Source: a virus (lineage: Duplodnaviria; Caudoviricetes). From it: a DNA stretch of 61,434 nucleotides. Positions 18,824 to 43,000 of this stretch are shown here, piece by piece; position 1 is the stretch's first letter, and each line of letters begins with the position of its first letter. Position numbers and translations under genes: made by a program. The notes under the pieces are model-generated. The model worked only from the letters and a program-made list of their open reading frames with translations, did not search any database and was not told where the DNA came from. The DNA lies in the IMG/VR virus record IMGVR_UViG_3300033076_000601, positions 1 through 61,434 of that record, one strand, 5' to 3'.

Positions 18824-19089
18824 AGATTATTGAGGCTGCTAAGGAAGCTATTAATGAGTTGATCAAGGTTCTTAAATCACCTATTATCACTCATGCTGAG
18901 GATGATATATCTGCTGATAAGATGAAAAACGCAGCATCAGCTAAGCGCTTAGCATTTGAGGATGCTATGTTCATGCTTAATAAAATTGAGGAAGAAGAAA
19001 ATAGGGCTGCAGAAACACCCATTGCTGAGGTAACACTAGGTAAATCGGGTTTTGCTGAAGGCAGAGCAAAAGCAAAGAATGGAAAATAA
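18808..19089 (+). CDS. Putative terminase small subunit
   Basis: Helical protein directly upstream of TerL. Confidence 0.4.
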   Translation: MSKKVEIIEAAKEAINELIKVLKSPIITHAEDDISADKMKNAASAKRLAFEDAMFMLNKIEEEENRAAETPIAEVTLGKSGFAEGRAKAKNGK

Positions 19090-24893: not shown

Positions 24894-26318
24894 ATGGCTG
24901 GTACATTAGCAGCGTCACCAACTTTCGCGTTGACGCCAAGTTCTGTCAAGGCAGCTTTGCCTGACAACTACATTAAAGATTTCAACTTCTTGAGTCAGTA
25001 TCTTCCTGATACTTACGAGCAAGAATTTGAGCGTTATGGTAACCGTTCTATCGCATCTTTCTTGCGTATGGTCGGTGCTGAACTTCCTACTAACTCTGAC
25101 CTCATCAAATGGGCAGAGCAAGGTCGTCTTCACACTAAATACACTGGATTGACATTTAATACATTTGCATCAGGTGTACAAACATTTACATTAGCTTCTG
25201 GATCTTGTGTATTCCGTGTAGGTCAAACTGTATTTCTTTCTTCTGAAAGCATTTCTGCTGAATCTGCAAAAGCACTTATCACTGCTGTAACTTCTACTAC
25301 GTTTACAGTTGCTTACTATTCTACAGCTAATCCATTTACTACAGGAACGACTGTAACTGCATTTGTTTACGGTTCTGAATTCCGTAAAGGTGATGTAGGT
25401 ATGAGTGGTTCTTTAGAAGCACAAGACTTGTTCTTCGACAACAAACCAATTATCATCAAAGACAAATACTCTGTATCTGGTTCTGACATGGCTCAAATTG
25501 GTTGGGTTGAAGTAACAACTGAAAATGGTGCTACTGGTTACCTTTGGTATTTGAAGTCTGAGCACGAAACTCGTTTGCGTTTTGAGGATTACCTCGAAAT
25601 GGCAATGGTTGAAGGCGTTCCTGCTGCCGCTAGTTCTGCTGCATTAAGTACTTTATCTCCGTCTACTGGTTATATACCTGGTCAAATTCCTACACCTACA
25701 GGTACAACAGCTGCTGGTACTCAAGGTATGTTTGATGCTATCGAAAGCCGTGGTAACGTTTGGTCTGGTGGTAACCCATCTTCTTTGGGTGACTTCGATA
25801 CAATCGTTCAACGTCTTGACAAGCAAGGTGCTATCGCTGAGAACGTATTGTTCTTGAACCGTCAGTTCTCTTTTGACATCGACGATATGTTGGCTGCTCA
25901 AAACTCTTACGGTGCAGGTGGTACTTCTTACGGTTTGTTTGACAATAACGAAGACATGGCATTGAATCTTGGATTCACTGGCTTCCGTCGTGGTTATGAG
26001 TTCTACAAAACTGACTGGAAATACCTTAACGACGCTACCCTTCGTGGTGGTATCGTTGGTGGTGCTGTTAACGGTGTATTGGTTCCTGCAGGAACAATGA
26101 ATGTTTACGACCAAGTACTTGGTAAAAACGCTAAACGTCCATTCTTACACGTTCGTTACCGCGCTTCTGAAGCTGAAAATCGTCGTTACAAAACTTGGAT
26201 GACTGGTTCTGCCGGTGGTGCACAGACAAGTGACCTCGATGCTATGGAAGTACACTTCTTGTCTGAGCGTGCGCTTTGTACATTAGGTGCTAACAACTTC
26301 TTCATCTTCAAAGGATAA
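24894..26318 (+). CDS. Major capsid protein
   Basis: Position, size, strongly biased codon usage, WAEQGRLH motif, followed by terminator. Confidence 0.85.
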   Translation: MAGTLAASPTFALTPSSVKAALPDNYIKDFNFLSQYLPDTYEQEFERYGNRSIASFLRMVGAELPTNSDLIKWAEQGRLHTKYTGLTFNTFASGVQTFTLASGSCVFRVGQTVFLSSESISAESAKALITAVTSTTFTVAYYSTANPFTTGTTVTAFVYGSEFRKGDVGMSGSLEAQDLFFDNKPIIIKDKYSVSGSDMAQIGWVEVTTENGATGYLWYLKSEHETRLRFEDYLEMAMVEGVPAAASSAALSTLSPSTGYIPGQIPTPTGTTAAGTQGMFDAIESRGNVWSGGNPSSLGDFDTIVQRLDKQGAIAENVLFLNRQFSFDIDDMLAAQNSYGAGGTSYGLFDNNEDMALNLGFTGFRRGYEFYKTDWKYLNDATLRGGIVGGAVNGVLVPAGTMNVYDQVLGKNAKRPFLHVRYRASEAENRRYKTWMTGSAGGAQTSDLDAMEVHFLSERALCTLGANNFFIFKG

Positions 26319-27525: not shown

Positions 27526-27551
27526 ATTTATCTTTGTACAAAAGCAGTCAG

Positions 27552-28250
27552 ATGATCAATGACGTTCGAAATACCGTACTTTCTATAATCAGCAAGGAGA
27601 ACCGTGGCTTTATTACGCCATTTGAGTTTAATCTATTTGCTAAACAAGCTCAATTAGAAGTATTTGAGCAATATGTATACAATTATAGCAAGTCAATTAA
27701 TGAGCAGAATGCTAGAACTCATGGAGAAGGGTATACCGATATTCCAAGAAATATGGCTGAGGTTATTGATAAATTTTCTACCTACGCTTCTTTGGTTTAT
27801 AATCCATTAAATAATCATTTTGAAGTTCCGGATGATTATTTCTTCTTAACTCGTATTGATTACAACAACAATACAGAGATAGAGAAGGTTAAGACAAATA
27901 AATTACCTTACTTATTAAGTTCTAATCTAACAGCACCAACGGTTAAATATCCGGTGTATTTATTAGATCAGAATGGAATTATTGTATACCCTACATCTAT
28001 TACATCTAACGTTACTACTCAGTATTTAAGATATCCAAAAGATCCACAATGGACTTATAACGTATCACCTAATGGTGACCCATTATTTAATCCAAACTCT
28101 TCTACATATCAAGACTTTGAGTTGCCTTTAAATGATTTTGCTAACCTAGTTATAAAAATTCTTGAATATTCTGGTATTTCAATTAGAGAACAAGATGTTG
28201 TATCTGCGGCTAAATCAGAAGAAGTTCAAGACATCCAAACTAAACAATAA
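27552..28250 (+). CDS. Head-tail adaptor or ring protein
   Basis: NKE.RG.ITP.EFN.FA..AQ-like and Y.R.PK.P.W motifs; start moved to ATG 27552; TATCTTTG at 27529. Confidence 0.6.
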   Translation: MINDVRNTVLSIISKENRGFITPFEFNLFAKQAQLEVFEQYVYNYSKSINEQNARTHGEGYTDIPRNMAEVIDKFSTYASLVYNPLNNHFEVPDDYFFLTRIDYNNNTEIEKVKTNKLPYLLSSNLTAPTVKYPVYLLDQNGIIVYPTSITSNVTTQYLRYPKDPQWTYNVSPNGDPLFNPNSSTYQDFELPLNDFANLVIKILEYSGISIREQDVVSAAKSEEVQDIQTKQ

Positions 28251-29158
28251 TGGCATATATTACTAATTATCAGTATTATACCAATAATGGTAACACACCT
28301 GAAGATGCAAATTGGGGATCATATCAGTATGTAAGCTTGGCTGACATTGTCAATAACTTTATATTGATGTATGTTGGTAATGATAAACTAGTTAATAATG
28401 TTGATCGATATACTGTATTGTTCCACGCAAAGCGCGCTATTCAAGAGTTAAATTACGACGCGCTTAGAAATATTAAGGTTTTAGAATTTGAGTTAGGGGA
28501 TCAGCTAAAAATGGTATTACCACCTGACTATGTAAATTACGTCAGAATATCTATGTTAAAAGGTGGGATACTTTACCCACTTACTGAAGCTAGGCAAACA
28601 ATAACAGCTACTGCATACCTTCAAGATAATAATGGGGAGATTGTATTTGACTCAAATGGTGAGGTAGTGATTGGAGAGTCTAGACTTGATATATTACGTC
28701 AAGAAGATAGACTCTATACAGGTCCTGGACCATACAATGGATACTATGGCTGGTATTACGAAGGCAACTGGTATTTTGGTTATCGTATTGGACAGCGTTA
28801 TGGGGTGAATACGTCTGATGCAAATGTCAATCCAAAATTCTCAGTTAATAAAGCCGCTGGTGTAATTGACTTTACATCTGGTGTTAGAAACGCATGGATT
28901 GTACTTGAGTATATTTCGGATGGTATGGAAAATGGTGATGATTCTCTTATCACAATCAACAAACTTGCTGAGGAATATATTTACGCATATTTGAAATGGG
29001 CTCTTCTTAATAATAAAATTGGAGTTCAAGAGTATATTGTCAATAGGGTTAAAAAAGAAAAAACCTCCATGTTGAGAAATACAAAAATTAGATTAAGCAA
29101 CATGCATCCTGGCCGCTTGCTTATGGCTATGCGAGGTAAGGACAAATGGATTAAATAG
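28250..29158 (+). CDS. Tail ring or tubular protein
   Basis: LP.DYVNYV.IS and LEYISDG motifs; position. Confidence 0.6.
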   Translation: MAYITNYQYYTNNGNTPEDANWGSYQYVSLADIVNNFILMYVGNDKLVNNVDRYTVLFHAKRAIQELNYDALRNIKVLEFELGDQLKMVLPPDYVNYVRISMLKGGILYPLTEARQTITATAYLQDNNGEIVFDSNGEVVIGESRLDILRQEDRLYTGPGPYNGYYGWYYEGNWYFGYRIGQRYGVNTSDANVNPKFSVNKAAGVIDFTSGVRNAWIVLEYISDGMENGDDSLITINKLAEEYIYAYLKWALLNNKIGVQEYIVNRVKKEKTSMLRNTKIRLSNMHPGRLLMAMRGKDKWIK

Positions 29159-29160
29159 AT

Positions 29161-32100
29161 ATGGCTGAAATACTGAGAACTTTCATAGCAGGCCGAATGA
29201 ATAAGGACCTTGATGAAAGGTTACTTCCAGAGGGCGAATACCGTGATGCTGTAAACGTAACTATTGATACGTCAGAAGGATCAAACATTGGAGCAATTCA
29301 AAATGCTTATGGCAATGTTAAAATTGCTGATATAGGTGACATATTGAGTTCTTATCAAGTAAGTGAACCTACAAACGCCGTTGTGATAGGGGCTGTAAAT
29401 TTTGAACCACAGAACTTATTATATTGGTTTGTAAAGGCTGATGACTTTGAGGGTATTTTTGAGTATAATCAAATTACCAATACATCTGTTTTAGTGTTAG
29501 GTTGTCAAATACCTAATACAAATAATGTTTATTTAAACTTTGATAAAAACCATCTTATAACCGGTGTTAATTATGTTACCGATGGACAGGGTGGTGGTCT
29601 TTTAATTTGGAATGACAACCTAAATCCACCAAGAAAAATCAATATTAGCCGATGCAAAACATATGCTATAAACGATCCTAGAATTAATGATGACATCAAT
29701 CTAATTGTAGCTCCACCTCTTAATTCTCCTTTTATATCATTAAGTAATCAAACAACACCTAGTTCAAATCCAAATAACATAGAGGATAAATTTGTTTACT
29801 TTAGTTATAGATATAAATACTCAGATAACGAGTATTCTGCAATGTCACCTCTTTCTGCTGTTGCTTTTAATCCTAAGGCTTTGAATATTGATTCAGAAAC
29901 AGGTGATAATAAAGGAATGCTCAATGCCTTTAATCAGGTAAATATAACTTTTGAAACTGGCAATCAATTTGTAACAGAAATCCAATTATTGGTTTGGGAA
30001 TCTAGAACCTTGAATGTTAAAATAGTTGAGACATTAAATAAGCAAGAGCTTAATATTCCAGATAATTCGACGTATAGTTTTTTCTTTATGAATAATAAGA
30101 CCTATGCAGCTCTTCCGTCTGATCAGGTCACTAGATTATTTGATAATGTGCCATTAAAAGCATTATCTCAAGAAATTATAGGAAGTCGATTGATTATGGG
30201 TAATTATACTCAATTTAGGGATTTATTAACCGATATTGATTACACTGTTAAATATGTAGAAGAACCTGTCACATCAGCTCCTAAACAAACCTGGAGAAGT
30301 GATAGAGATTATGAAATAGGTATTGCATATTTAGATGATTATGGTAGAATGACTACTGTCCTTACTACTACAAATGATAACTCTAATAATAACCTATCTA
30401 ATTCTATTTATATTCCTGCCTCAAATTCTAGCACAGCAAATTCATTAATTGTAAGTATTAAGAATAAAGCTCCTGAATGGGCAACCGGATATAGGTTTTT
30501 TGTAAAGCAATCAAAAACTGAGTACTATAATATTTTCCCTGTCACCTATTTAGCATCTGGATCATATCGTTATTTCTTAATTAATGAGGCGGATAGAGAT
30601 AAGATTAAGGTAAATGGATATATTATATTTAAATCGTCTGGATCAGGTCCTACAAATTCAAACAAACAATTTAAAGTTCTTGAACTTGAGCAAAAGGCAG
30701 CCAATGCTATAAATAGTGGATCATTAGAAGGTCTTTATTTTAAAATCAAAGCAGATGCATCTGACACATTTATTAGCTCTACAAGTCAAATTGTGTATAA
30801 TTTTAATGGATCGGGTAGAGGGCCTAAAATCCCTGGATTTGGGTCTAATACTGTTGATCCTGTAACAAATAGAATTACTAATGCAAGTATTTCTAGCACA
30901 TTGGCTTATTATCATTTTAGTGGTGATAACACTATACCAAATACAGGGCCAAGTGTAAATTTGGTAAATATAAATTGTCAAACAGATGCAAGACTTACTG
31001 TATTAATAACGGCTGGAAATAAATATAAAACCACATTAACTATTGATCAGTCTTCTTTTAGTGCTGAGTCAAACATTACTACAGGTCCAATTACTATTAA
31101 CATTGCAACTGGTCAAACAGCTGATTTATATTTTCAACCCGGTTCTTATAATGCTGGTGATAGATTTATTTTCAATATAAGAGGTAAAGGTAATAAGTCT
31201 GGTACACCTTCTGCCAGGAATAATAATAACTATGGCCTACCTTTAAATATTAATTCATTTGGTATAAATCAATATGGTGGAGTAGCGTTACTTCAAGAAC
31301 CATCTGGTAGTGTAATATATCCTGGGGCACAAATATCAATTGCAATAGAATATGATTGCGCACCAGGGGATGGTTATCGATCTGTGACTAATACATTTGT
31401 ATCTCCTAATTATTACACTAATTTAGAGGAGTGGTTTTACGAATCAGGTGCTTATTCTACATTCGTTCAATATAAAGACCAAAATTCAACTAACAATATT
31501 GGATCAAGAGGCGTTACATTTAGAAATGGTTTGTTATACACAAATACAGGATCTCCTGTATCAAACTCAATAATTCAGACACCAAATGCTGTATCTGGTT
31601 CAAAATTATATATGTGCATACAGGGCTTTGGAAACGGCTCATTAACTGGCACTCAAAAGAATGAAATAAAGGCATCTTTAAAAGTTATTCAAACACCGTT
31701 AAGTAATAAATTATCGGCTGAAACAGTTCCTGTAAATGACGATGTAGATATCTACTATGAAATGAGTAGAACCTATCCAATTGTTAATGGAGCTCATATG
31801 GCCCTTTGGAATTACGACAAATGCGTGGCAAATGGAAGTAACGTGTTTTTAGTTCAAAATTCTAATTCACATCCACATTACTTTGAGGATGGTCAATCCG
31901 TATATGTAACCGCTGCAAATATACCTGCTGGTTATTACACGGTTGAAAGTGTGCCAGATAGGTATTCTATAGAAATTAACTATACTGCTGCAACAGCAAA
32001 TATACCTGGTGGTGTGTCAGATAACAATATCGATCAAAACCAAGTATTGCCACTTAATCCAGCAGTAATAAAACTAAATAATACTAATAATAAGAATTCA

Positions 32101-33090
32101 GATTACAATGCATATTGCTATGGTAATGGTGTGGAATCGAACCGAATATTAGACGGATTTAATGAACCATGGCTTAAGTATAGCCTTAGAGCTAGTGGTG
32201 TTATTGAAAACTATGAACAGCAAGTAAAAGATACATCACTAACATACAGTGGATTATATCGTTGGGACACATCAATTAATAGGCTTAACGAGTTTAATTT
32301 ATCTCAAGCTAACTTTAAAAATTTAGATAAAGGTTTTGGATCGGTTCAGAAATTATATGCCAGAACGACTGACTTGGTAGTATTACATCAAGATAAGATT
32401 ACATCTGTTCTTTATGGTAAAAACTTATTGGTTGACGCTGTTGGTGGCGGATCGGTAGCTTCGGTTCCAGAAGTACTTGGAACTCAGATTGCTTTACCTT
32501 ATGAGTTTGGTATATCCTCAAACCCTGAAAGTTTTGCAGTATGGAGCGATAGAATGTATTTTACTGACGCTAGAAGAGGTGTCGTTTTACAAGTACAAGG
32601 AGACGAGGTATTGCAAATATCTAGAATGGGTCTATCTGATTATTTTAGAGATATAATGCTAGATTCTTCTGGTTATGCAAAGCTAGGCGCTTATGATCCA
32701 TATAATCACACATATGTTATTGCATCTACCAATAGAAAAAACACACCTTGCGACATAACTATTAATCCAACAACAGATAGTTTTCAATATAACACAGCTG
32801 GTGGTCTTGAGTATTTATTTGCTTTGTCTGGAACTACAAGTTGGACTGTATCATTAATTAACAATGGATTTGGAACTAACTGGGTAGAAATTCCTCCTTA
32901 TTGTCAAAATGGTGTTGGATCTCAAGACATCTATGCAAGAATTCAAAACAATACCACTCTTACACAAAGAAGTGTTATTGTGAGGGTTTCATATTGCAGT
33001 ACATATATAGATTACACACTTATTCAAGGACGTGGACCAAGAACAGATTTTAATATTATAACGTTAGGTAAAGATGAGTTCAAAAACTAA
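29161..33090 (+). CDS. Tail stabilisation (muzzle-like) protein, N-terminal part, ending in a BACON-like domain
   Basis: F..G.MNKDLDERL.P.GEYRDA.N start, FDNVP.KA..QE...RL..GNY, GIS.NPESFA, YFTD..RG.V; C-terminal WTVS..W...G.G...N....R...Q. Confidence 0.7.
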   Translation: MAEILRTFIAGRMNKDLDERLLPEGEYRDAVNVTIDTSEGSNIGAIQNAYGNVKIADIGDILSSYQVSEPTNAVVIGAVNFEPQNLLYWFVKADDFEGIFEYNQITNTSVLVLGCQIPNTNNVYLNFDKNHLITGVNYVTDGQGGGLLIWNDNLNPPRKINISRCKTYAINDPRINDDINLIVAPPLNSPFISLSNQTTPSSNPNNIEDKFVYFSYRYKYSDNEYSAMSPLSAVAFNPKALNIDSETGDNKGMLNAFNQVNITFETGNQFVTEIQLLVWESRTLNVKIVETLNKQELNIPDNSTYSFFFMNNKTYAALPSDQVTRLFDNVPLKALSQEIIGSRLIMGNYTQFRDLLTDIDYTVKYVEEPVTSAPKQTWRSDRDYEIGIAYLDDYGRMTTVLTTTNDNSNNNLSNSIYIPASNSSTANSLIVSIKNKAPEWATGYRFFVKQSKTEYYNIFPVTYLASGSYRYFLINEADRDKIKVNGYIIFKSSGSGPTNSNKQFKVLELEQKAANAINSGSLEGLYFKIKADASDTFISSTSQIVYNFNGSGRGPKIPGFGSNTVDPVTNRITNASISSTLAYYHFSGDNTIPNTGPSVNLVNINCQTDARLTVLITAGNKYKTTLTIDQSSFSAESNITTGPITINIATGQTADLYFQPGSYNAGDRFIFNIRGKGNKSGTPSARNNNNYGLPLNINSFGINQYGGVALLQEPSGSVIYPGAQISIAIEYDCAPGDGYRSVTNTFVSPNYYTNLEEWFYESGAYSTFVQYKDQNSTNNIGSRGVTFRNGLLYTNTGSPVSNSIIQTPNAVSGSKLYMCIQGFGNGSLTGTQKNEIKASLKVIQTPLSNKLSAETVPVNDDVDIYYEMSRTYPIVNGAHMALWNYDKCVANGSNVFLVQNSNSHPHYFEDGQSVYVTAANIPAGYYTVESVPDRYSIEINYTAATANIPGGVSDNNIDQNQVLPLNPAVIKLNNTNNKNSDYNAYCYGNGVESNRILDGFNEPWLKYSLRASGVIENYEQQVKDTSLTYSGLYRWDTSINRLNEFNLSQANFKNLDKGFGSVQKLYARTTDLVVLHQDKITSVLYGKNLLVDAVGGGSVASVPEVLGTQIALPYEFGISSNPESFAVWSDRMYFTDARRGVVLQVQGDEVLQISRMGLSDYFRDIMLDSSGYAKLGAYDPYNHTYVIASTNRKNTPCDITINPTTDSFQYNTAGGLEYLFALSGTTSWTVSLINNGFGTNWVEIPPYCQNGVGSQDIYARIQNNTTLTQRSVIVRVSYCSTYIDYTLIQGRGPRTDFNIITLGKDEFKN

Positions 33091-35722
33091 ACAATCATTT
33101 AGCTATACAGGTAGCTCAACATATACAATTGATAATGTGGTATTAAGTGGTAGCGCTATTGCTCTATTTGATACATCTACTGGAGTTGGTGGCGTTGGGT
33201 ATGTTCCATATGATGGTGCTACCGTTACTGTAGTTGCTGGAGATGTTTTATCAGATTATCGTCAACTTGCGCCAACGTTAAATAATAAGTTGTATTACTT
33301 AGTTTCAGATACTGCATATACAGCGGCCGATAAAACAACTATACTTAGTTTAGCTACTGAAATTCCGGTAGTATACTCAGCAGGAGTATTCACAGGTACA
33401 TTTACATTTTTAAATCCAAACAACTACGAGTATGTGTATTTGTTATGGGATTATGAGGATAAGATGGATCTTGTGGCTTCTTATAAAGGTATAACAGAAA
33501 GTAGGTCTATTGTTATGGATTATGGTTCTAGGATTGGGCGTGCTGGTATTAATTTTAATACCATTGACCCTGATCAACCAACCAGATACCAGGTAGAGTG
33601 GAATGGAAATATTGTTATAGATACTAAATATGTAGGAGTTAACTCATTAGTTAATTATAACGCATTAATATCTGCAGGCATTCCTGAAGACGAAATAGGT
33701 CTTGTATTTCCATATGATGGGACTATTGACAATGGAGTTGGCTCTGTTGAATTTTATAAAAATCTAGAAATTGGAGAGGCTAAATTGATTGTTTCTTCTC
33801 CTTTTAGTGGGTCTACATGGATTGTAAATAAAATAAGTCCATATTTAACTAGAATGTATATTGATCAAGCGGAGGGTATTGAATCTGATGTGTGTGCTCA
33901 ATGTCCTACTTTTGAAATATGGCATAATGGCGTTGATAAATTACCTGATGTCGGAGATCAATTATTTTTAACAGACAGCGGTCAAGATCTCTATGTTGGT
34001 GATGAATATCTTCATTTAATAGACACAACAGATGCTTGTACTTCTGCTGTATATTATATATCAACTACTTTAACTGGAGAAGTTTTATCAAAAGAAAGTT
34101 GCACTTGTTCTGAATTTGCTGTTCCTTTTATTATTGCAGATCCTATAACTTCTACTACAAATACATCTGAAAGCATAACTATAGAAGTTATTAATAATCC
34201 AACTTCATGGGATTTACTTGCAAGTACGTTACCTGATCAAGCGGTTTTTTCAAATGGTGTAGTATATTTTGATAGTTGCCCTGCTGGTGTTTACTCAATA
34301 ACAGTTAGGGCTAACAATTGCCTTGGATCTAGCTCATCAGCTGTTATATCTATAACTGTGTCAGATCCAGGGAATATGAAGCCTTTCTTAATTGACATTG
34401 AGCAATTTAAAGAGTCAGGATCAGACGCTTGCTTGGTTATTCCAACATTTACATTGATGTATTTTGATGGAGATGGGTATATACCTAATTTAACCGACAC
34501 TGTGTTTTATGATTCGGAGGGTAAAAGGCCGTTTATGGGCGGTAAAAAATGGTATCAAATCAATGACTCTGATTACACTATACAAATAGATCAGGAGGGT
34601 ACAATTATTGGAAAATCAACATGCCCTGGTACCACTACAACTACTACAACTACAAGCACAACTACACTTCCTTCAGGAACTTATTTCACAGCCATATCTT
34701 GCGCAGATAATACCACAACTGTTGTTTTAAGAAATTCATTAGGCACAGCTATAACAACGGGCCTTGTAGTTAAGACGACAGATGGTAATTGCTGGAGAAT
34801 AACTGGATCAACAACAGCATCATTCCCATATTACAATGTAGTGACTCCTATTGTTACATATGCCGACTGTACCGCATGTACTGGAACTACTACTACCACA
34901 ACCACTAGTACTACCACAACTGCCACTCCTGTTACTGCATTTGAAATAGATATAACTGGCTTTACATCTGATTCACTAGCTTGTAGATCTACACCAACAT
35001 ATGTAAATTACTACAATACAGGCGGATCATTAGCAGTAAACGAATTTGTTTACATTGACTCGGGGGCAACGACATTATTTGATGGTGGTTTCTTATGGTA
35101 TTTAGTTAGAATATCAGGCATTCCTTACGCTTGTTTAATTGCAAACACAGGCCAAGTGTTAAAACTTTTAGCTTGTTCTGGCGTTACCACTACCACCACT
35201 ACTACAACAATACCTGTTTTTTATTATAATGGTACTAAATGTGTTGGAGGTGCATCTGTATTGATGAGGTATCAAGGTTTTAGTGCATTAAGTTTACCTA
35301 ATTATGTAAAAGACAGTAATGGGGATTGCATCACAATTACATCAACAGCATCTCCTGGAACTCAAAATGGAGATATATATTATACTTACAATAGTTGTTC
35401 TGAATGTGCTGCAACAACGACTACGACAACTACGACAACAACGACAACTACGACAACAACAACGACTACGACAACAACGACTACGGCAGCTCCTTTAACA
35501 ATGTTAACGCTGTCTTACTCTTCTTCACAATCAACAGTCTGTACTGTTTTTGATATTAATAATTATTATGTAAATGGGGCTATTGGTATTCCAGGAAATT
35601 ATATCTTTACGGACCCATTGGGCGCAGACCCAGCACCTGCTGGTTGGTACTTAAATTTAATTATTAATGTCGCATACGAATGGAATGGGTCTAATTGGAC
35701 CGGTGCGACTAAATCTTGCTAA
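33074..35722 (+). CDS. Cys-rich repeat virion protein with four poly-Thr (mucin-like) tracts
   Basis: Repeated Cys-containing modules separated by Thr runs of up to 24 residues. Confidence 0.7.
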   Translation: MSSKTKQSFSYTGSSTYTIDNVVLSGSAIALFDTSTGVGGVGYVPYDGATVTVVAGDVLSDYRQLAPTLNNKLYYLVSDTAYTAADKTTILSLATEIPVVYSAGVFTGTFTFLNPNNYEYVYLLWDYEDKMDLVASYKGITESRSIVMDYGSRIGRAGINFNTIDPDQPTRYQVEWNGNIVIDTKYVGVNSLVNYNALISAGIPEDEIGLVFPYDGTIDNGVGSVEFYKNLEIGEAKLIVSSPFSGSTWIVNKISPYLTRMYIDQAEGIESDVCAQCPTFEIWHNGVDKLPDVGDQLFLTDSGQDLYVGDEYLHLIDTTDACTSAVYYISTTLTGEVLSKESCTCSEFAVPFIIADPITSTTNTSESITIEVINNPTSWDLLASTLPDQAVFSNGVVYFDSCPAGVYSITVRANNCLGSSSSAVISITVSDPGNMKPFLIDIEQFKESGSDACLVIPTFTLMYFDGDGYIPNLTDTVFYDSEGKRPFMGGKKWYQINDSDYTIQIDQEGTIIGKSTCPGTTTTTTTTSTTTLPSGTYFTAISCADNTTTVVLRNSLGTAITTGLVVKTTDGNCWRITGSTTASFPYYNVVTPIVTYADCTACTGTTTTTTTSTTTTATPVTAFEIDITGFTSDSLACRSTPTYVNYYNTGGSLAVNEFVYIDSGATTLFDGGFLWYLVRISGIPYACLIANTGQVLKLLACSGVTTTTTTTTIPVFYYNGTKCVGGASVLMRYQGFSALSLPNYVKDSNGDCITITSTASPGTQNGDIYYTYNSCSECAATTTTTTTTTTTTTTTTTTTTTTTTAAPLTMLTLSYSSSQSTVCTVFDINNYYVNGAIGIPGNYIFTDPLGADPAPAGWYLNLIINVAYEWNGSNWTGATKSC
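35414..35485 (+). repeat. 24 consecutive Thr codons (mixed ACA/ACG/ACT)
   Basis: Read directly from the sequence. Confidence 0.95.
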
Positions 35723-36639
35723 TGAAGACATTAAGAATGTTGTCGGCGCAACCAGCGCTTGACTACTATGCTTGGCAAATTGAGGTGTGTATACACAACT
35801 TTGCGTCACTAGGTTATGAGAATATAGATATTGTTGCAGGATATCAGGATGAGATACCTGAGTCTTGGAATAAGCTATACCAAACATATTCCGATATAGC
35901 TCGTTTCTTTTTCTATAAAGATACGATGGGTGAGTGTAATTATCCACCTGCTATTCAGGCTCATCTGCTTCATAAACATTTTAAAAAACATCCTGATCTA
36001 ATAAATGATGCGTTCTTTTTTCATGACGCTGACTTCGTTTTTACTAAATATATGGATTTTACTCCATATCTTAATGATGATATATGGTACTTCTCAGACA
36101 CTATTTCATACATAGGTTATGATTATATCATGAGTAAAGGAGAAGAGGTCTTAAAAGCTATGTGTAATCAAGTCGGGATATCACGCAAATTAGTTGAGTT
36201 TTACAAAAACAAAAGTGGCGGCGCTCAAAAGCTGATGAAGAACTTAACAGCTAACTATTGGAAAAAAGTTGAACAGGATAGCAAAGCTTTATATAACCTT
36301 TTGACTGATATGCAACATATTAAGAAGGAAGGAGATCCAAATGGAATACAAGCATGGACAGCAAGTATGTGGGCCGAACTATGGAACGCTTGGTTTTTTG
36401 GCCATCATGTTGAGGTTCCAAAGGATTTTGATTTTGCCTGGGCTACTTGCCCGGTTAATCGATGGGATGAATTGTATTTTTTCCATAACGCTGGAGTCTT
36501 AAATTCAGGACAGGGAATGTTTCATAAGGCATCGTATATGGACAATCTTCCATTCAAAACAGACTTACAGTTAGACCCAAACAGATGCTCTTATAAGTAC
36601 TACGAGATGATTAAAAGCATGAAAAGCTGCTTGGTCTAA
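35716..36639 (+). CDS. GT-A glycosyltransferase resembling HPAT/SGT1 (GT95/GT96) protein O-glycosyltransferases
   Basis: YYAWQ, FFFHDADFVF (DxD), GGAQ.L, W.ASMWA.LW.AW and FFH occur in HPAT-like order. Confidence 0.6.
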   Translation: MLMKTLRMLSAQPALDYYAWQIEVCIHNFASLGYENIDIVAGYQDEIPESWNKLYQTYSDIARFFFYKDTMGECNYPPAIQAHLLHKHFKKHPDLINDAFFFHDADFVFTKYMDFTPYLNDDIWYFSDTISYIGYDYIMSKGEEVLKAMCNQVGISRKLVEFYKNKSGGAQKLMKNLTANYWKKVEQDSKALYNLLTDMQHIKKEGDPNGIQAWTASMWAELWNAWFFGHHVEVPKDFDFAWATCPVNRWDELYFFHNAGVLNSGQGMFHKASYMDNLPFKTDLQLDPNRCSYKYYEMIKSMKSCLV

Positions 36640-36657
36640 AATTAGTAACTTTGTTAT

Positions 36658-37437
36658 ATGATTATAGATACACTTACTTTTTCCAATAAGTCTCAAGGAT
36701 GGGCATCTAGGTGGAGTTACAGACCTGATTGGATGATTGGTCTTAATAGTAGCTTCTATTCTTTTAAGAATGGAAATCTATATCAGCACGATATTAATCA
36801 AACCCATACAGAGTTTTATGGTAATATAGATGGTTTTTCCGTTTCAACAATATTTAATGAATCACCTGTTGAAATAAAGATGTTTAAAACATTAGCTATT
36901 GATGGGTCAACAGGTTTAAATGTAACTGGATATACTGATTTAGATCAGGTTGAAATGTCTATAGATCAATTCAAAAAGAAAGAAGGTAAATTTTATGCTT
37001 ACCTTAGAAGGCCACAAAATGAGTTGGATTTAGAATTGATTTCTTCTCAAGGAATTGGATCTGTTGTATCTACTAACGTTAACACCATAGAAGTGAGTAA
37101 TTCATTTTCTAATGTAGATATCGGTGATAAAGTATACAAAGCAACATTTACTCCAGCTTCAAACCCTGAAGATATTGCAGATATTGGAAACATTAGTAAT
37201 GTTCTTGAAGTCGGAACAATTTCAGCTATTGGATCTAACTCTATAACAACATCATCTTCATTTATAAATACGCCAAATCCAGGTGATTATTTATTTATTG
37301 TAAAAGAATCATCAATAGAGTCTTACGGCGCTAGAGGATATTACCTTAACTTGACATTATCTTTATCCGGGTCTGAGGCTGCAAACAATCATGAGGTATT
37401 TGCAATCAAGAGTTCCGTATTCAAAAGTTTTCCTTAA
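36658..37437 (+). CDS. Tail stabilisation protein, detached C-terminal part
   Basis: TLTFS...GW.S.WSY.PD.M...NS.FYSFKNG.LY.H, K.FKT...G, F.KKEG.FY.Y, G.RGYY; TAACTTTG at 36646. Confidence 0.6.
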   Translation: MIIDTLTFSNKSQGWASRWSYRPDWMIGLNSSFYSFKNGNLYQHDINQTHTEFYGNIDGFSVSTIFNESPVEIKMFKTLAIDGSTGLNVTGYTDLDQVEMSIDQFKKKEGKFYAYLRRPQNELDLELISSQGIGSVVSTNVNTIEVSNSFSNVDIGDKVYKATFTPASNPEDIADIGNISNVLEVGTISAIGSNSITTSSSFINTPNPGDYLFIVKESSIESYGARGYYLNLTLSLSGSEAANNHEVFAIKSSVFKSFP

Positions 37438-37446
37438 ATTTGTTAC

Positions 37447-37854
37447 ATGGAAGTTAGGTATCTTGATGACCGTGATTACGATGTTTTGGCGTCATGGTGG
37501 AAAGATTGGAGATGGACACCTCCACCTAAAGATATGTTACCTCAAAACGGTAGAGGTGGGTTGATGATTACAAAAGACGGTGAAGATATTTGCGCCGGAT
37601 TCATATATTTCACCAACTCAGCTACAGCATGGGTTGAGTTTATAATATCTAACTTTCAATATAAAAACAAAGAGGAAAGAAAGGAAGCTATTTTACTTTT
37701 GATTCAAGCCCTTTCAGAAGTTGCGAAAGACAACAACTGTAAGTATATTTATACTTCGTTAAAGAACGAACAACTGATTAACCACTACGCAGCTTGTGGA
37801 TTTGAAAAAGGATCAACCGGCTGCACTGAAATGATAAAGATATGGCAGCAGTAA
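37447..37854 (+). CDS. GNAT-family acetyltransferase-like protein
   Basis: GNAT-like order ending L...Y...GF; position before internal proteins. Confidence 0.55.
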   Translation: MEVRYLDDRDYDVLASWWKDWRWTPPPKDMLPQNGRGGLMITKDGEDICAGFIYFTNSATAWVEFIISNFQYKNKEERKEAILLLIQALSEVAKDNNCKYIYTSLKNEQLINHYAACGFEKGSTGCTEMIKIWQQ

Positions 37855-40063: not shown

Positions 40064-43000
40064 ATGGAAAACGAATGGACACCACCAAGTGATGCAGTAG
40101 AGGCAACTTCATCTTTTGTTCCTCCATCTGACGCAGTAAAAAAAAAAGATCTTACGGCATCTGGATCGGTAAAACCTTCATTGGCAAGATCATCGACCAC
40201 AACAACTATAAAGCCTACGGTATCTTCAGTTTCAAAAGGAAAAGCTGACGGTATATATTCTTTTCCTGGTGAAGATAATGCCATTTACAAAAAAGAGAAT
40301 GGGCAGTGGTTTAAGTCGTTTAAGGGTGAGTATAAGTACTATCCAATTACAAAAGGTGACGTCCAAAACCGAATTCAATCACTCGAGAAAAACGCTCAAT
40401 CTTTAGAAAATTATAGCTTTGAAAAACCAGAGCCAGAAATGCCCGAAGTTCCTAAAGAACTACAAGGAGATAGAAATACTATAGAATATTGGGATAAATT
40501 ACTAGCAGCTGGAAAAATAAATAAGAAGACTTATGACTATCACGCTGATAGAATTTCATCATCTGACTTAGAAAAGTCAGTTGTTAAATCTGCCGCTGTA
40601 AAACCTAAACCACTAACAGAGACGCAGAAAAAAGAGCAAGAGGCTTTTGATAAATCATTCGGTGTTGTTTCAGAGGCTGAGTATCAAAAAAGAAAGGCAG
40701 AATCTGACGTAATTGATGCTAAGGTAAGTCAAATTACTTCTGATCTAATAGATTATAGTGAAGGAGATGTAGTTCCAAAAGTACAAGAACTTATTAAAGA
40801 TTACCCATATTTGCAAGTATCTGAATCTGGTGCTGGGTATGATGAGCTTGAGATTAAAAACGTTATTACTGGAGAAAGTAAAAAAATAAATTTAGATAAC
40901 TGGACTTCAGATAGAGATAAAGAAGAGGCTAAAAGACTGCAAGGTTTTTTAGATATTCAGATGACATCGAAAGACTATGTAGAGCAATTTGACAAAGTAA
41001 ACAAACTTAAGGTTAAAATATCTACAGCCACACCTACTGAAAGAATAGAATTATCTCAAAAATTATTAGAGGAACAGGCTAAATTAACAGATTTAAAAAA
41101 CATTAGATATAATAAAGCAAAGTCTGATAAATATAAAGCTGCTGCTATCTATGACAAGAACGCAAAGGAAAATATTAAGACTGAATTTGCTAAGCTTCAA
41201 ATACAATCTATTGACTACGCTGAAAAAGCTAAAGACTATTCAGATTGGGCAAAAACTGTTAATGATGCTAAGTCAAAAGGTTTAATTACTCAAGAGCAAT
41301 ATGATTTAGAATATGCTCCTAAATTAGCTCAAGAAAAAAACATGCTCATTGAAGAAAAAAATAAAATCAATGAGAACTTTAGACAGACACAATTTGAAAG
41401 CACCTCTATAGATAATATTGCGGCTGATAACTTTGCTATTGAAGCAGAGAGAGGTAATATACTTACAGGTACGGCATTTTCTGCATTGCAGGGAGCTGAG
41501 AATTCTCTTAGATTTTTACTTGAGACAGGACCTTTTGAGCAAGGTGATTTCAAGGGATTACTTACAGAAGCTGCACCTGGATCCATTAGTGATGTATATA
41601 CATCATCTGAAGGTAGAAATGCTTTAGAACAAATTGTATTTGGATTAGCCAACTCAGGTGGATCAGCTTTAGTTGGTGCAGCTACAGGAGCTTCATGGTT
41701 AGGTCTATACGCCTCTTCATATGTAAATATGAAAGACCAGATGAGTACACCTGAATTTGCAGATGTGCCTGAATACCAAAAGATATTAATGTCTGGTGTT
41801 TATGGTAGTACTATTGGTCTTCTAGAAGCATATGGTGTTGGTAAATGGTTTCAAAAAACACCTGCCGGGAAGGGGCTTACTAATTGGATTTTAAAAAGAA
41901 CTATTGCAGAACTTGGTAAAGATGCAACAACAGAAGCAATTGAATTAGGTATAAAGAAAAATTTAAAAGCAGCTATAACAAATGGTCTTATTCAAGTAAC
42001 TGCATCTGGTCTTGTTGAAGGATCAACAGAGCTTGCTCAAGAGGCTGCCGATATGGTTTATAAGGATGTATTTAATAGACTAGCTGATAAAGAATACTTT
42101 GAAAATCCAGACTCGTGGGCTGGAGTTGCTGACAGATTAAGTCAGTCCTTTTTACTTGGTTTTGCTGGTGGTGCCGGAATGAATGCAATAAGCCAGACTA
42201 CTCAGATTGCAAAAAATGAACTTACTAAATCTCAGATTAATAACATTTCTCAATTGATTAATGATCCTGACTTATATGATACTTTCAAGCTTAATCTAAA
42301 AGACCAAATACTTTCTGGACAAATATCAAAAGATGAGGCTAAACGCCAAGTTGCAAAGATTAATGAACTAGAGGGTACCTTAAATAAAATACCAAGCAAG
42401 GTAGATAAATTTGAGGCGTTTAAGTTGATCACCGAGAGAGATGAATTACAAAAAGAAATTGCAGGGAAAGACCCTGCTCTTGTCGCAGCTCAAACAGAGC
42501 GCGTCAATGCTATCAATGATGAATTAAAACAATTAAGTTATGCCGTTCAAGAGCAAGCAACAAGTGAAGTACCTGTACAGCCAGGAGCCGCAGTTAGCGG
42601 AAAAGTGGAGGAAAGAAAACCCGAAACAGGACTTGAAGAAACTACCCAAGAAGGTGAAAAAGTAACTGCACAGATTAATGTAGCTCCTTTATTTGATACC
42701 AAAGTAACTAACGTTCAAGAAGCAGAAGCCATTAGACAGTCTGATATGTATAAAACATATAAAAATGACATGGTCAAAACTGCAGATACATTTGGAGTCA
42801 CTGTTGATGGTATTGATGATACTATTGGCGGATATCAAGGAACCTCAGAAGTTTCTACAGTAGTTAATGTAACCGGCGATTGGAATAATATAATTGAGTT
42901 TGCTGCAGTATATGGAGCAATGACTCCAGAAGTACAAGACTCAACTATTGCCGGTAGAACTGTAAAAGCAGGAACTACCGAACATAATACTGATCGATTA

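What the first reader, a model, noticed from the sequence alone, without database searches (positions are those of the whole stretch)
33074..36639. Candidate virion O-glycosylation system: mucin-like poly-Thr tail protein plus HPAT/SGT1-like glycosyltransferase
Seen: an 882-aa tail-region protein has four Thr tracts (near 34630, 34885, 35186 and a 24-mer at 35414), each starting just after a Cys. Mixed codons indicate selection on Thr rather than slippage alone. The overlapping next gene has a DxD motif (HDAD) and YYAWQ...GGAQ.L...W.ASMWA motifs in the order I recall for plant hydroxyproline arabinosyltransferases and peptidyl-serine galactosyltransferases (GT95/GT96), which glycosylate hydroxy-amino-acid-rich proteins. 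Inference: the phage glycosylates its own Thr linkers into stiff mucin-like stalks for protease resistance, adhesion or shielding. Phage virion glycosylation is known in some actinophages, but I do not know of this enzyme-substrate pairing being described.
Basis: partly seen in the sequence, partly recalled or inferred. Interest (0 to 1): 0.88.

Follow-up and report, generated by a model that had tools for sequence, protein, structure and literature searches.

The report
Phage sugar-transferase paired with poly-threonine proteins
A phage tail protein with four pure-threonine linkers is followed directly by an unannotated sugar-transferring enzyme whose relatives, in many unrelated phages, almost always sit beside particle proteins carrying threonine tails, so it probably sugar-coats them.

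Summary
ORF 33074-35722 (882 aa) has four Thr tracts of 12, 12, 8 and 24 residues, each 2-3 residues after a conserved Cys. The next gene probably starts at ATG 35722 in a TAATG overlap. It folds as a GT-A glycosyltransferase with a conserved DxD motif.

New evidence links the two genes.
- In 8 of 8 phage lineages examined that carry this enzyme family (phrog_4417), capsid, tail-tube or other proteins encoded in or beside the structural gene block have poly-Thr tails or linkers.
- Five phages with homologous tail-tube proteins, three of them also with homologous capsid proteins, but no enzyme lack these tails.
- In the window's own lineage the two genes are present or absent as one cassette: 36 loci have both, 4 have neither and none has the enzyme alone.
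- Synonymous codons in the tracts are scrambled while their length and Thr/Ser content are kept.

Membership in GT95/GT96 is not established. Pfam HPAT does not hit the window protein and gives only faint hits in relatives. No chemistry was tested. Half of the bacterial-genome homologues lack nearby poly-Thr, and most of those lie in RiPP-like peptide clusters.

An earlier follow-up in this scan reached the same reading on another genome (e1-5873153).

The parts
29161..33090 (+). Tail 'muzzle' protein, N-terminal part (1309 aa). It overlaps the start of the poly-Thr gene by 17 nt.
   Evidence: phrog_14478 virion structural protein, E 3.9e-190. In relatives L079, L082 and L083 the poly-Thr tracts lie near the end of one ORF of about 2190 aa. 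For L082 this ORF was shown to be the muzzle-N homologue fused in frame to the poly-Thr protein.
33074..35722 (+). 882-aa beads-on-a-string protein. A beta-rich N-terminal region is followed by small Cys-bounded modules joined by four Thr linkers. This is the proposed glycosylation substrate.
   Evidence: AF2 model: pLDDT 77.2, with the four tracts below 50 and the flanking modules mostly 70-90 or higher. phrog_21885 matches aa 446-516. Tracts and flanking Cys are conserved in 16 orthologues.
34631..34666 (+). Thr tract 1 (T8-S-T3)
34886..34921 (+). Thr tract 2 (T7-S-T4)
35186..35209 (+). Thr tract 3 (T8)
35414..35485 (+). Thr tract 4 (T24)
   Evidence: Among 69 orthologues there are 59 distinct DNA versions. 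In the 40 versions printed, every codon is ACN or a Ser codon and the length is 21-29.
35720..35724 (+). TAATG stop/start overlap that couples the poly-Thr gene to the GT gene
35722..36639 (+). Soluble GT-A-fold glycosyltransferase. It is 305 aa from ATG 35722; the ORF listing gives the TTG at 35716, 307 aa.
   Evidence: phrog_4417, E 3.6e-68, function unknown. No Pfam hit. AF2 pLDDT 94.8. Foldseek top 50 PDB matches are all glycosyltransferases, several of families I recall as GT-A. VIA-align: LgtC Z 14.5, glycogenin 14.1, WbbM 14.1, Skp1 alpha-galactosyltransferase 6mw8 14.1. No hydrophobic segment: maximum Kyte-Doolittle 19-mer score 0.76.
36022..36033 (+). HDAD (His103-Asp104-Ala105-Asp106), the DxD metal and nucleotide-sugar motif
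   Evidence: D104 and D106 are invariant in 36 close relatives. In 74 diverse representatives D106 is invariant and D104 is at least 90% conserved.
36658..37437 (+). 259-aa protein with the crAss muzzle C-terminal domain. In relatives without the cassette it follows the muzzle N-part directly.
   Evidence: PF25729 crAss_MUZ_C, E 2e-9. In L328, L352, L331 and L345 its homologue starts 272-302 nt after the muzzle-N homologue.

Best explanation
Genes 33074-35722 and 35722-36639 form a two-gene substrate and enzyme cassette inserted in the tail-tip ('muzzle') gene region of a complete 61-kb phage with crAss-like tail genes.

The enzyme is a soluble, cytoplasmic, metal-dependent (DxD) GT-A glycosyltransferase of the uncharacterised phrog_4417 family.

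Inferred mechanism: during virion assembly in the host cytoplasm the enzyme transfers sugar from a host nucleotide-sugar onto the hydroxyl groups of the poly-Thr (and some Ser) linkers of the upstream protein. This would turn disordered linkers into extended, hydrophilic, protease-resistant mucin-like spacers that hold small Cys-bounded beta modules away from the tail tip.

In Bacillota siphophages and prophages the same enzyme family would act on short poly-Thr tails at the C-termini of the major head and major tail proteins, so poly-Thr behaves as a portable acceptor tag.

Shown here: the fold, the conserved DxD, translational coupling, protein-level selection on the tracts, and co-occurrence across lineages.

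Inferred only: that the acceptor is Thr in the tracts, the donor sugar, retaining or inverting chemistry, and the biological benefit.
For: (1) Enzyme.
- The AF2 model has pLDDT 94.8 and pTM 0.91.
- Every one of the 50 listed Foldseek PDB matches is a glycosyltransferase, several of families I recall as GT-A.
- VIA-align against 48,161 chains puts LgtC, glycogenin, WbbM, the Skp1 alpha-galactosyltransferase 6mw8 and UGGT at Z 13.5-14.5 over 211-244 residues.
- The DxD motif is conserved.
- Relatives are fused to GT6, GT2, Gly_transf_sug, methyltransferase or radical-SAM domains (6 of 10 long forms scanned carried at least one of the three glycosyltransferase domain types).

(2) Substrate under selection.
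- 59 distinct DNA versions of the longest tract occur among 69 orthologues. In the 40 printed the tract is 21-29 codons long and made only of Thr or Ser codons.
- Tract positions and flanking Cys are conserved down to 38% identity.

(3) Linkage within the lineage.
- 80 of 80 IMG/VR loci fetched by the GT have a poly-Thr ORF upstream of the GT, directly adjacent in 77.
- Among 41 muzzle-anchored loci with at least 4.5 kb downstream, 36 have both genes, 4 have neither and 0 have the GT alone. One has a single 6-residue tract inside the muzzle protein and no GT.
- Loci without the pair keep muzzle-N followed directly by muzzle-C.

(4) Linkage across lineages.
- The GT lies in or beside the structural gene block (unannotated in MA9V-3), and poly-Thr tails or linkers occur on capsid, tail-tube or neighbouring proteins in 8 of 8 phage lineages examined. 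These are phiFL1A, 1706, iLp84, MA9V-3, Planchet, phiCTP1, vB-SscS-F1 and R3.3.
- Five phages with homologous tail-tube proteins (Javan47, Javan505, phiJL-1, ATCC8014 and SPP1; the Javan capsids resemble phiFL1A's and the Coetzeevirus capsids R3.3's) have no GT anywhere in the record. The whole-record search gave 0 of 5, and the positive control 5 of 5. None of the five has a poly-Thr tail.
- This includes a contrast inside one genus, Coetzeevirus: R3.3 has the GT and tails, phiJL-1 and ATCC8014 have neither.

(5) Bacterial genomes.
- 42 of 80 loci with a homologue have a poly-Thr(6 or more) ORF, and in 38 of those 42 it lies within 200 nt of the GT.
- The tailed proteins tested are major head (phrog_10) and major tail (phrog_88) proteins.
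- In 5 host genomes, 7 distinct ACNx7 sites were found in 4 genomes, and 5 of the 7 lie inside the 21-kb GT loci.
Against: - No glycan was observed. Everything rests on fold and gene neighbourhood.
- In the window's own lineage the two genes are adjacent, so joint gain and loss could reflect physical linkage alone.
- Of 80 bacterial-genome loci with a homologue, 38 have no poly-Thr(6 or more) ORF within the flanks. Of those, 25 are Bacteroidota two-domain forms in RiPP-like clusters. The other 13 are unexplained, and 6 of them are contigs under 10 kb.
- Poly-Thr is not exclusive to this enzyme. Of 118 IMG/VR stretches fetched by an ACNx10 pattern, 73 have an in-frame run of 8 or more Thr, and only 8 of those hold this GT within the stretch held.
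- The fold cannot name the acceptor. The same GT-A neighbours include sugar-, lipid- and protein-directed enzymes.
- The Pfam HPAT and GT8 models do not hit the protein.
Confidence: 0.7

Rival explanations
1. The glycosyltransferase acts on a non-protein target, such as host cell-envelope polysaccharide or teichoic acid (superinfection exclusion or receptor masking) or phage DNA. On this reading the poly-Thr tracts are plain unglycosylated flexible linkers, and the co-occurrence is hitch-hiking of neighbouring genes.
For: GT-A neighbours include polysaccharide- and teichoic-acid-directed enzymes (TarP 6h1j Z 10.0, KfiA, hyaluronan and cellulose synthases). In the window's lineage the two genes are adjacent, so linkage alone would explain. 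38 of 80 genome loci have the enzyme without poly-Thr.
Against: - The protein has no membrane segment.
- The gene sits inside or beside the structural gene block in every phage examined, not in lysogeny or nucleotide-metabolism modules.
- In Bacillota phages the Thr tails are on two or three different core proteins spread over several kb. Those tails are missing from homologous proteins of GT-less phages, which adjacency cannot explain.
- Most poly-Thr-free loci are RiPP-like peptide clusters, which again point to a peptide acceptor.
Confidence: 0.13
2. The enzyme glycosylates virion proteins, but at sites other than the Thr tracts, or it uses the tract only as a docking element.
For: The one experimentally studied phage system has no poly-Thr. 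Che8 capsid and tail-tube proteins end in ...NKTGS and ...YSDGS, so virion glycosylation does not need such tracts.
Against: The only feature that consistently tracks enzyme presence across unrelated proteins (capsid, tail tube, small head protein, muzzle appendage) is the Thr tract itself. Tract length and composition are conserved while DNA diverges.
Confidence: 0.1
3. The GT-like protein is catalytically inactive and serves as an assembly chaperone or structural component for Thr-rich proteins.
For: None direct. Its position between the tail-tube and tail-chaperone genes in some siphophages resembles that of assembly factors.
Against: The DxD motif and further residues (Q171, H257, K271, Y76, Y132) are invariant across 74 representatives of 30-44% identity, as expected for an active site. 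Fusions to further GT domains also fit an active enzyme.
Confidence: 0.04

Closest known systems
Mycobacteriophage virion glycosylation (Che8, Corndog, Myrna; Freeman et al. 2023, Cell Host Microbe). I saw only passages citing it in PMC12363180, PMC13445384 and PMC13313380. The paper itself is not held.
   Same: Phage-encoded glycosyltransferases modify the phage's own capsid proteins (as the citing passages say; tail proteins too, by my recall) inside the host cell.
   Different: - No detectable sequence relation. The family profile against Che8 gp108-110 gives E of at least 0.31, and blastp gives E of at least 2.4.
- Che8 capsid and tail-tube proteins have no poly-Thr.
- The Che8 GT genes lie at the far right end of the genome, not in the structural module.
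- tblastn with the window GT found no Mycobacterium phage among 75 records.
GT8-type retaining GT-A enzymes (LgtC 1g9r, glycogenin 3u2t/1zcu, WbbM C-domain 6u4b, GlyE 5gvv) and UGGT (I recall it as GT24).
   Same: Best structural matches: Z 12.9-14.5, 210-244 aligned residues, rmsd 3.4-4.3. DxD motif. By my recall, glycogenin and UGGT act on proteins, and GlyE acts on a serine-rich repeat adhesin in the cytoplasm.
   Different: Sequence identity is 8-11%. Pfam Glyco_transf_8 does not hit. No PDB relative was found by sequence or by profile. Retaining chemistry is not shown.
Plant hydroxyproline O-arabinosyltransferases (HPAT, Pfam PF23452; GT95 by recall) and peptidyl-serine galactosyltransferase (GT96 by recall).
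   Same: These enzymes glycosylate hydroxy-amino acids of repetitive proteins. The HPAT model has 307 positions, the size of this protein. There is a faint sequence link: 1 of 74 family representatives at E 1.3e-4, and 10% of the members of one neighbouring viral Atlas cluster.
   Different: No HPAT hit for the window protein, for its 35 close relatives, or for 5 Firmicute-phage records. There is no membrane anchor. The acceptor would be Thr, not Hyp or Ser. GT96 could not be tested.
Serine-rich-repeat adhesin glycosylation of Gram-positive bacteria, and eukaryotic mucin-type O-glycosylation (both from recalled general knowledge).
   Same: Dense O-glycosylation of long Ser/Thr tracts gives extended stalks that present terminal binding modules. 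In the bacterial case it happens in the cytoplasm.
   Different: Those systems use other initiating enzymes (GtfA/B and GT27 respectively, by recall). Here a single small GT-A is encoded next to its substrate in a virus, and the tracts are almost pure Thr.
Chlorovirus PBCV-1 A64R capsid glycosyltransferase (2p6w).
   Same: A virus-encoded GT-A enzyme that glycosylates the major capsid protein. It is a structural match at Z 11.4.
   Different: It comes from a eukaryotic giant virus and shares 10% identity over 191 residues. By recall it makes N-linked atypical glycans. No poly-Thr acceptor is involved.

Membership tests
GT-A fold glycosyltransferase superfamily | Single Rossmann-like alpha/beta/alpha nucleotide-sugar-binding domain | tested here: met
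   AF2 model pLDDT 94.8. All 50 listed Foldseek PDB matches are glycosyltransferases. VIA-align Z up to 14.5 over most of the chain.
GT-A fold glycosyltransferase superfamily | DxD metal-binding motif after a central beta-strand | tested here: met
   H103-D104-A105-D106 follows strand E99-102. D106 is invariant and D104 at least 90% conserved in 74 representatives.
CAZy GT8 / Pfam Glyco_transf_8 | Sequence match to the family model | tested here: not met
   No Pfam hit at E up to 0.1 for the protein. None among 36 relatives at E up to 10, or among 74 relatives at E up to 0.01.
CAZy GT8 / Pfam Glyco_transf_8 | Closest structural neighbours are GT8 enzymes | tested here: met
   LgtC Z 14.5, glycogenin 14.1 and 13.9, WbbM 14.1, 3tzt 12.9, GlyE 12.9.
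HPAT (Pfam PF23452; GT95 by recall) | Sequence match to the HPAT model above its cut-off (23.9 bits) | tested here: inconclusive
   No hit on the window genome or on 5 phage records at E up to 10, but the tool's controls rang nowhere. 0 of 36 close relatives hit. 1 of 74 diverse relatives hits at E 1.3e-4. 10% of one neighbouring Atlas cluster carries it. A profile-profile comparison was not possible.
HPAT (Pfam PF23452; GT95 by recall) | Type II membrane anchor and Golgi location (recalled) | tested here: not met
   No hydrophobic segment; maximum KD 19-mer score 0.76.
Peptidyl-serine alpha-galactosyltransferase (GT96, recalled) | Sequence or fold match to SGT1-type enzymes | not testable with these tools
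   No model or sequence of this family was available from any tool.
Actinophage virion glycosylation system (Che8 type) | Homology to Che8 gp108-110 glycosyltransferases | tested here: not met
   hmmsearch E of at least 0.31 and blastp E of at least 2.4.
Actinophage virion glycosylation system (Che8 type) | Virion proteins carry O-linked glycans that depend on the phage GT | not testable with these tools
   Needs mass spectrometry of virions.
phrog_4417 (phage protein family of unknown function) | Full-length match to the family profile | tested here: met
   E 3.6e-68, residues 7-303 on profile positions 2-292 of 293.

The most novel reading that the evidence does not exclude
phrog_4417 is a dedicated, widespread peptide and protein poly-Thr O-glycosyltransferase family. 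On this reading poly-Thr is a portable acceptor tag that marks which virion proteins get a glycan coat: capsid, tail tube and tail-tip appendages. The tag would be used in Bacillota siphophages and prophages (Enterococcus, Staphylococcus, Listeria, Lactobacillus, Lactococcus, Clostridium hosts) as well as in aquatic Bacteroidota phages. A sister branch would glycosylate RiPP peptides in Chitinophagaceae and Sphingobacteriaceae. The family may share ancestry with plant HPAT enzymes. That would make virion glycosylation a common, genomically predictable trait of phages rather than an actinophage peculiarity.
Probability: 0.5. Interest if true: 0.85.

Novelty: new variant of a known kind. Interest (0 to 1): 0.72.

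Why it matters
If correct, one unannotated family gets a function. The family has 955 representative clusters at E up to 1e-3 and no Pfam model. The function comes with a simple sequence rule for predicting which phage particle proteins are glycosylated: the ones with Thr tracts.

Particle glycans are reported to affect antibody recognition of mycobacteriophages (passages in PMC12363180 and PMC13445384). The same could therefore matter for therapeutic phages of Enterococcus and Staphylococcus, for dairy phages, and for cryo-EM maps in which such tails are invisible.

The pairing is also a compact enzyme-plus-tag system that could be tested and reused for glycoengineering in bacteria.

My six searches of the held paper library for such a pairing found no description of it. 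One search likewise found no paper that names both hydroxyproline O-arabinosyltransferase and bacteriophage. Subscription journals and supplements were not searchable.

Tried and rejected
- DNA-level search of 33074-36639 against the phage collection found no match. tblastn of the 882-aa protein also found none.
- Sequence searches of the PDB gave nothing meaningful. The single-protein search returned McbD, PAK2 and geminin at E of at least 0.03. The 74-sequence profile returned TAL-effector repeats at E 0.011, a spurious match over 30 residues.
- Foldseek on the whole 882-aa model gave only generic multi-Ig and adhesin ectodomains at TM of at most 0.12. I take from it only 'all-beta, modular'.
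- Pfam on the upstream structural ORFs added little. PHROGs named the terminase, the portal and several virion proteins.
- I considered a DNA-modifying or envelope-modifying role and ranked it low, for the reasons given under the rival explanations.
- I did not run complex prediction. Its own description says enzyme-substrate pairs are rarely worth a job.
- I did not use sequencing-run tools, because expression was not in question.
- Freeman et al. 2023 could not be read, so details of that system are second-hand or recalled.
- In some searches, two of the 80 returned loci (L029, L048) were left out because they had been fetched earlier under the GT query.
- analysed only 80 of the 118 pattern loci. 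One search repeated the analysis on all 118.
Full report
**What is in the window**

The window is a complete viral record of 61,434 bp; CheckV completeness is 100. On the + strand it carries a late operon:
- terminase (19052-21298) and portal (21298-23721);
- several 'virion structural protein' PHROGs, among them 24894-26318, 27534-28250 and 28250-29158;
- a 1309-aa protein of phrog_14478 (29161-33090);
- the 882-aa poly-Thr ORF (33074-35722) and the 307-aa ORF (35716-36639);
- a 259-aa protein with the Pfam crAss muzzle C-terminal domain (36658-37437);
- further downstream, a 3164-aa ORF.

Both genes of the finding therefore lie inside the tail part of the structural module of a phage with crAss-like tail genes.

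One search gives four tracts:
- aa 520-531, T8-S-T3;
- aa 605-616, T7-S-T4;
- aa 705-712, T8;
- aa 781-804, T24.

Each tract starts 2-3 residues after a Cys (517, 602, 701, 778).

With a Thr frequency of 0.067, about 6e-6 runs of 8 or more Thr are expected in the window's long ORFs. No other ORF has one.

The next gene's likely start is ATG 35722, which overlaps the stop as TAATG. Its HDAD, YYAWQ, GGAQ and W.ASMWA motifs are present and conserved.

**The tracts are selected as protein**

Sixteen orthologues of 38-79% identity keep all four tracts at the same alignment positions, with 13 invariant Cys residues bounding the small modules. Two exceptions qualify this: L031 ends before the fourth tract, and one orthologue (L044) has Thr/Ser/Pro linkers instead.

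Across the window and 68 related loci, the longest tract exists in 59 different DNA versions. In the 40 versions printed it is 21-29 codons long, mostly 24, and uses only ACN or Ser codons. Slippage would give length variation with uniform codons. The opposite is seen.

AF2 models the tracts as disordered (pLDDT below 50) between confident beta modules. The overall pLDDT is 77.2 and pTM is 0.36, as expected for beads on a string. Fold matches of the whole chain are generic.

**The substrate protein belongs to the tail tip**

In three more distant relatives (L079, L082, L083) the poly-Thr tracts lie near the end of one ORF of about 2190 aa. For L082, BLAST shows this ORF is the muzzle-N homologue fused in frame to the poly-Thr protein.

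In six relatives with a 43-47% identical muzzle-N protein (L328, L342, L343, L345, L352, L331), both the poly-Thr gene and the GT gene are missing. In four of them the muzzle-C homologue follows muzzle-N after 272-302 nt, and in L342 and L343 after about 950 nt.

Among the 41 muzzle-anchored loci that extend at least 4.5 kb downstream:
- 36 have both genes;
- 4 have neither;
- 1 (L331) has only a single 6-residue tract inside muzzle-N;
- none has the GT alone.

The pair therefore behaves as one insertable cassette.

**The enzyme**

No Pfam family matches. PHROGs places the protein in phrog_4417, function unknown, at E 3.6e-68.

With 35 relatives as the alignment, AF2 gives pLDDT 94.8. Foldseek against the PDB returns only glycosyltransferases among its 50 listed matches, for example WbbM, COLGALT1, UGGT, xyloside xylosyltransferase, the blood-group transferases, glycogenin and GlyE.

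VIA-align over 48,161 chains ranks the following highest:
- LgtC, Z 14.5;
- glycogenin, Z 14.1;
- WbbM, Z 14.1;
- the Skp1 alpha-galactosyltransferase 6mw8, Z 14.1;
- UGGT, Z 13.8.

BFVD gives two close uncharacterised phage proteins and then viral glycosyltransferases. There is no hydrophobic segment, so the enzyme is cytoplasmic.

In 74 representatives of 30-44% identity to the window protein, Y76, D106, Y132, G169, Q171, M218, F240, H257 and K271 are invariant.

The profile finds 955 representative clusters at E up to 1e-3. Many are 500-1000 aa long. Of ten long forms scanned, six carry further glycosyltransferase domains (GT6, GT2, Gly_transf_sug) and two carry methyltransferase or radical-SAM/SPASM domains. 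This fits multi-step glycan building.

**GT95/GT96**

The Atlas look-alike search lists a viral cluster in which 10% of members carry Pfam HPAT (PF23452), and another cluster with DUF7164.

HPAT does not hit the window protein, its 35 close relatives, the window genome or five Firmicute-phage records. In the last two searches the tool had no positive control. One of 74 diverse representatives hits HPAT at E 1.3e-4.

I read this as a faint hint of distant kinship, not membership. GT96 could not be tested.

**Linkage in unrelated phages**

tblastn finds the enzyme in 75 phage records, all below 60% identity. They are mostly Enterococcus, Lactobacillus, Staphylococcus, Lactococcus and Clostridium phages, plus one Chryseobacterium phage.

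I examined eight lineages. In seven of them the gene lies inside the annotated structural module; every neighbouring gene in the eighth (MA9V-3) is annotated hypothetical. In all eight, neighbouring proteins carry Thr tracts:

| Phage | Proteins with Thr tracts |
|---|---|
| phiFL1A | tail-tube C-terminal tail of 21 Thr/Ser; capsid-like gp45 |
| 1706 | capsid/protease and major structural protein both end in T9-10 HHD |
| iLp84 | capsid, tail tube and a 126-aa protein |
| MA9V-3 | internal 21-residue linker in the upstream gene |
| Planchet | tail tube and PLANC_26 |
| phiCTP1 | gp4, gp11, gp18 |
| Staphylococcus phage vB-SscS-F1 | protease/scaffold, tail tube, gp6 |
| R3.3 | capsid and tail tube |

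**Control**

The phiFL1A tail-tube core has homologues in 76 records. I checked five that lack the enzyme: Javan47, Javan505, phiJL-1, ATCC8014 and SPP1. A whole-record profile search found the enzyme in 0 of 5, against 5 of 5 in a positive control. None of the five has a poly-Thr tail on its capsid or tail tube.

R3.3, phiJL-1 and ATCC8014 are all Coetzeevirus, so the contrast holds within one genus. There the tails are on core proteins kilobases apart, so simple adjacency does not explain the pattern.

**Bacterial genomes, with results both ways**

Eighty loci were fetched from species-representative genomes.

*Loci with poly-Thr.* Forty-two have a poly-Thr(6 or more) ORF. In 38 of these the ORF is within 200 nt of the enzyme gene, and the tract is usually a C-terminal tail on proteins of about 400, 105 and 210 aa. 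The proteins tested are major head (phrog_10) and major tail (phrog_88) proteins.

A whole-genome ACNx7 scan of five such host genomes found seven distinct sites in four genomes. Five of the seven lie inside the 21-kb loci.

*Loci without poly-Thr.* Thirty-eight have none. Twenty-five of these are from Chitinophaga, Pedobacter, Sphingobacterium, Mucilaginibacter and relatives, and encode a two-domain form of about 585 aa. At least one neighbour in each is homologous to a gene of the L233 cluster. That cluster holds a C39-peptidase ABC exporter, a radical-SAM enzyme, a LanC-like protein and a GT1, which is a RiPP-like layout. The remaining 13 are unexplained, and six of them are contigs under 10 kb.

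Only 8 of those hold this enzyme, each time directly downstream of the Thr-rich ORF. Poly-Thr is therefore not exclusive to this family.

**Comparison with the known system**

Passages in PMC12363180, PMC13445384 and PMC13313380 cite Freeman et al. 2023 for Che8, Corndog and Myrna virion glycosylation by phage GTs. The paper itself is not held.

Che8 gp108-110 show no sequence relation to this family, lie far from the structural genes, and the Che8 capsid and tail-tube proteins lack poly-Thr. The present system is therefore a different enzyme family, a different acceptor and a different gene arrangement, with the same presumed outcome.

**Verdict**

The family label (GT95/96) is unproven, and glycosylation is still an inference.

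I put 0.7 on phage-encoded O-glycosylation of the Thr tracts. An earlier follow-up in this scan (e1-5873153) reached the same reading on another genome. I re-derived it here from my own calls and do not count that note as evidence.

Noticed in passing
L233:9995-11749 and flanks (Chitinophaga niastensis). 25 of the 38 poly-Thr-free genome loci have at least one homologous neighbour.: A two-domain homologue of the GT, about 585 aa with a Glyco_transf_7C hit in the C-terminal half. It sits in a RiPP-like cluster with a C39-peptidase ABC exporter, a radical-SAM enzyme, a LanC-like protein and a GT1. This could be a glycosylated-peptide pathway. No precursor peptide was looked for.
   Followed up: partly
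window 29161-37437: The muzzle protein appears split into an N part (1309 aa) and a C-domain protein (259 aa), with the poly-Thr and GT cassette between them. Relatives show all three states: no cassette (L328, L352), a separate poly-Thr gene (the window), or muzzle-N fused in frame to the poly-Thr protein (L082, 2190 aa).
   Followed up: yes
window 9063-10631 (+): A phage-encoded GroEL-type chaperonin: Pfam Cpn60_TCP1, E 5.8e-55.
   Followed up: no
window 37447-37854 (+): A 135-aa protein of phrog_17252 with a weak GNAT acetyltransferase signal (E 0.009). A 63% identical homologue is present in L352, which lacks the GT cassette, so it is not tied to the cassette.
   Followed up: partly
window 40064-49558 (+): A 3164-aa ORF with only a short phrog_3170 match and an SSTTTT near its N-terminus. 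Its position and size recall the giant virion proteins of crAss-like phages (a recalled comparison).
   Followed up: no
P0125, P0129, P0134, P0150, P0164, P0198, P0259: Long relatives fuse the GT domain to GT6, GT2, Gly_transf_sug, methyltransferase or radical-SAM/SPASM domains.
   Followed up: partly
G003:C10:14568-14593 (Enterococcus lactis genome behind L262): A further ACNx7 site on a different contig from the GT locus. Whether it lies in a second prophage with its own GT was not checked.
   Followed up: no
L215:3249-7973 and L216:7489-9918: MAG contigs labelled Rhodobacterales and Gammaproteobacteria carry very long multi-tract proteins, with 9-11 Thr tracts of up to 34 residues, directly upstream of a GT homologue. 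The L215 protein shares the phrog_21885 module with the window protein.
   Followed up: partly
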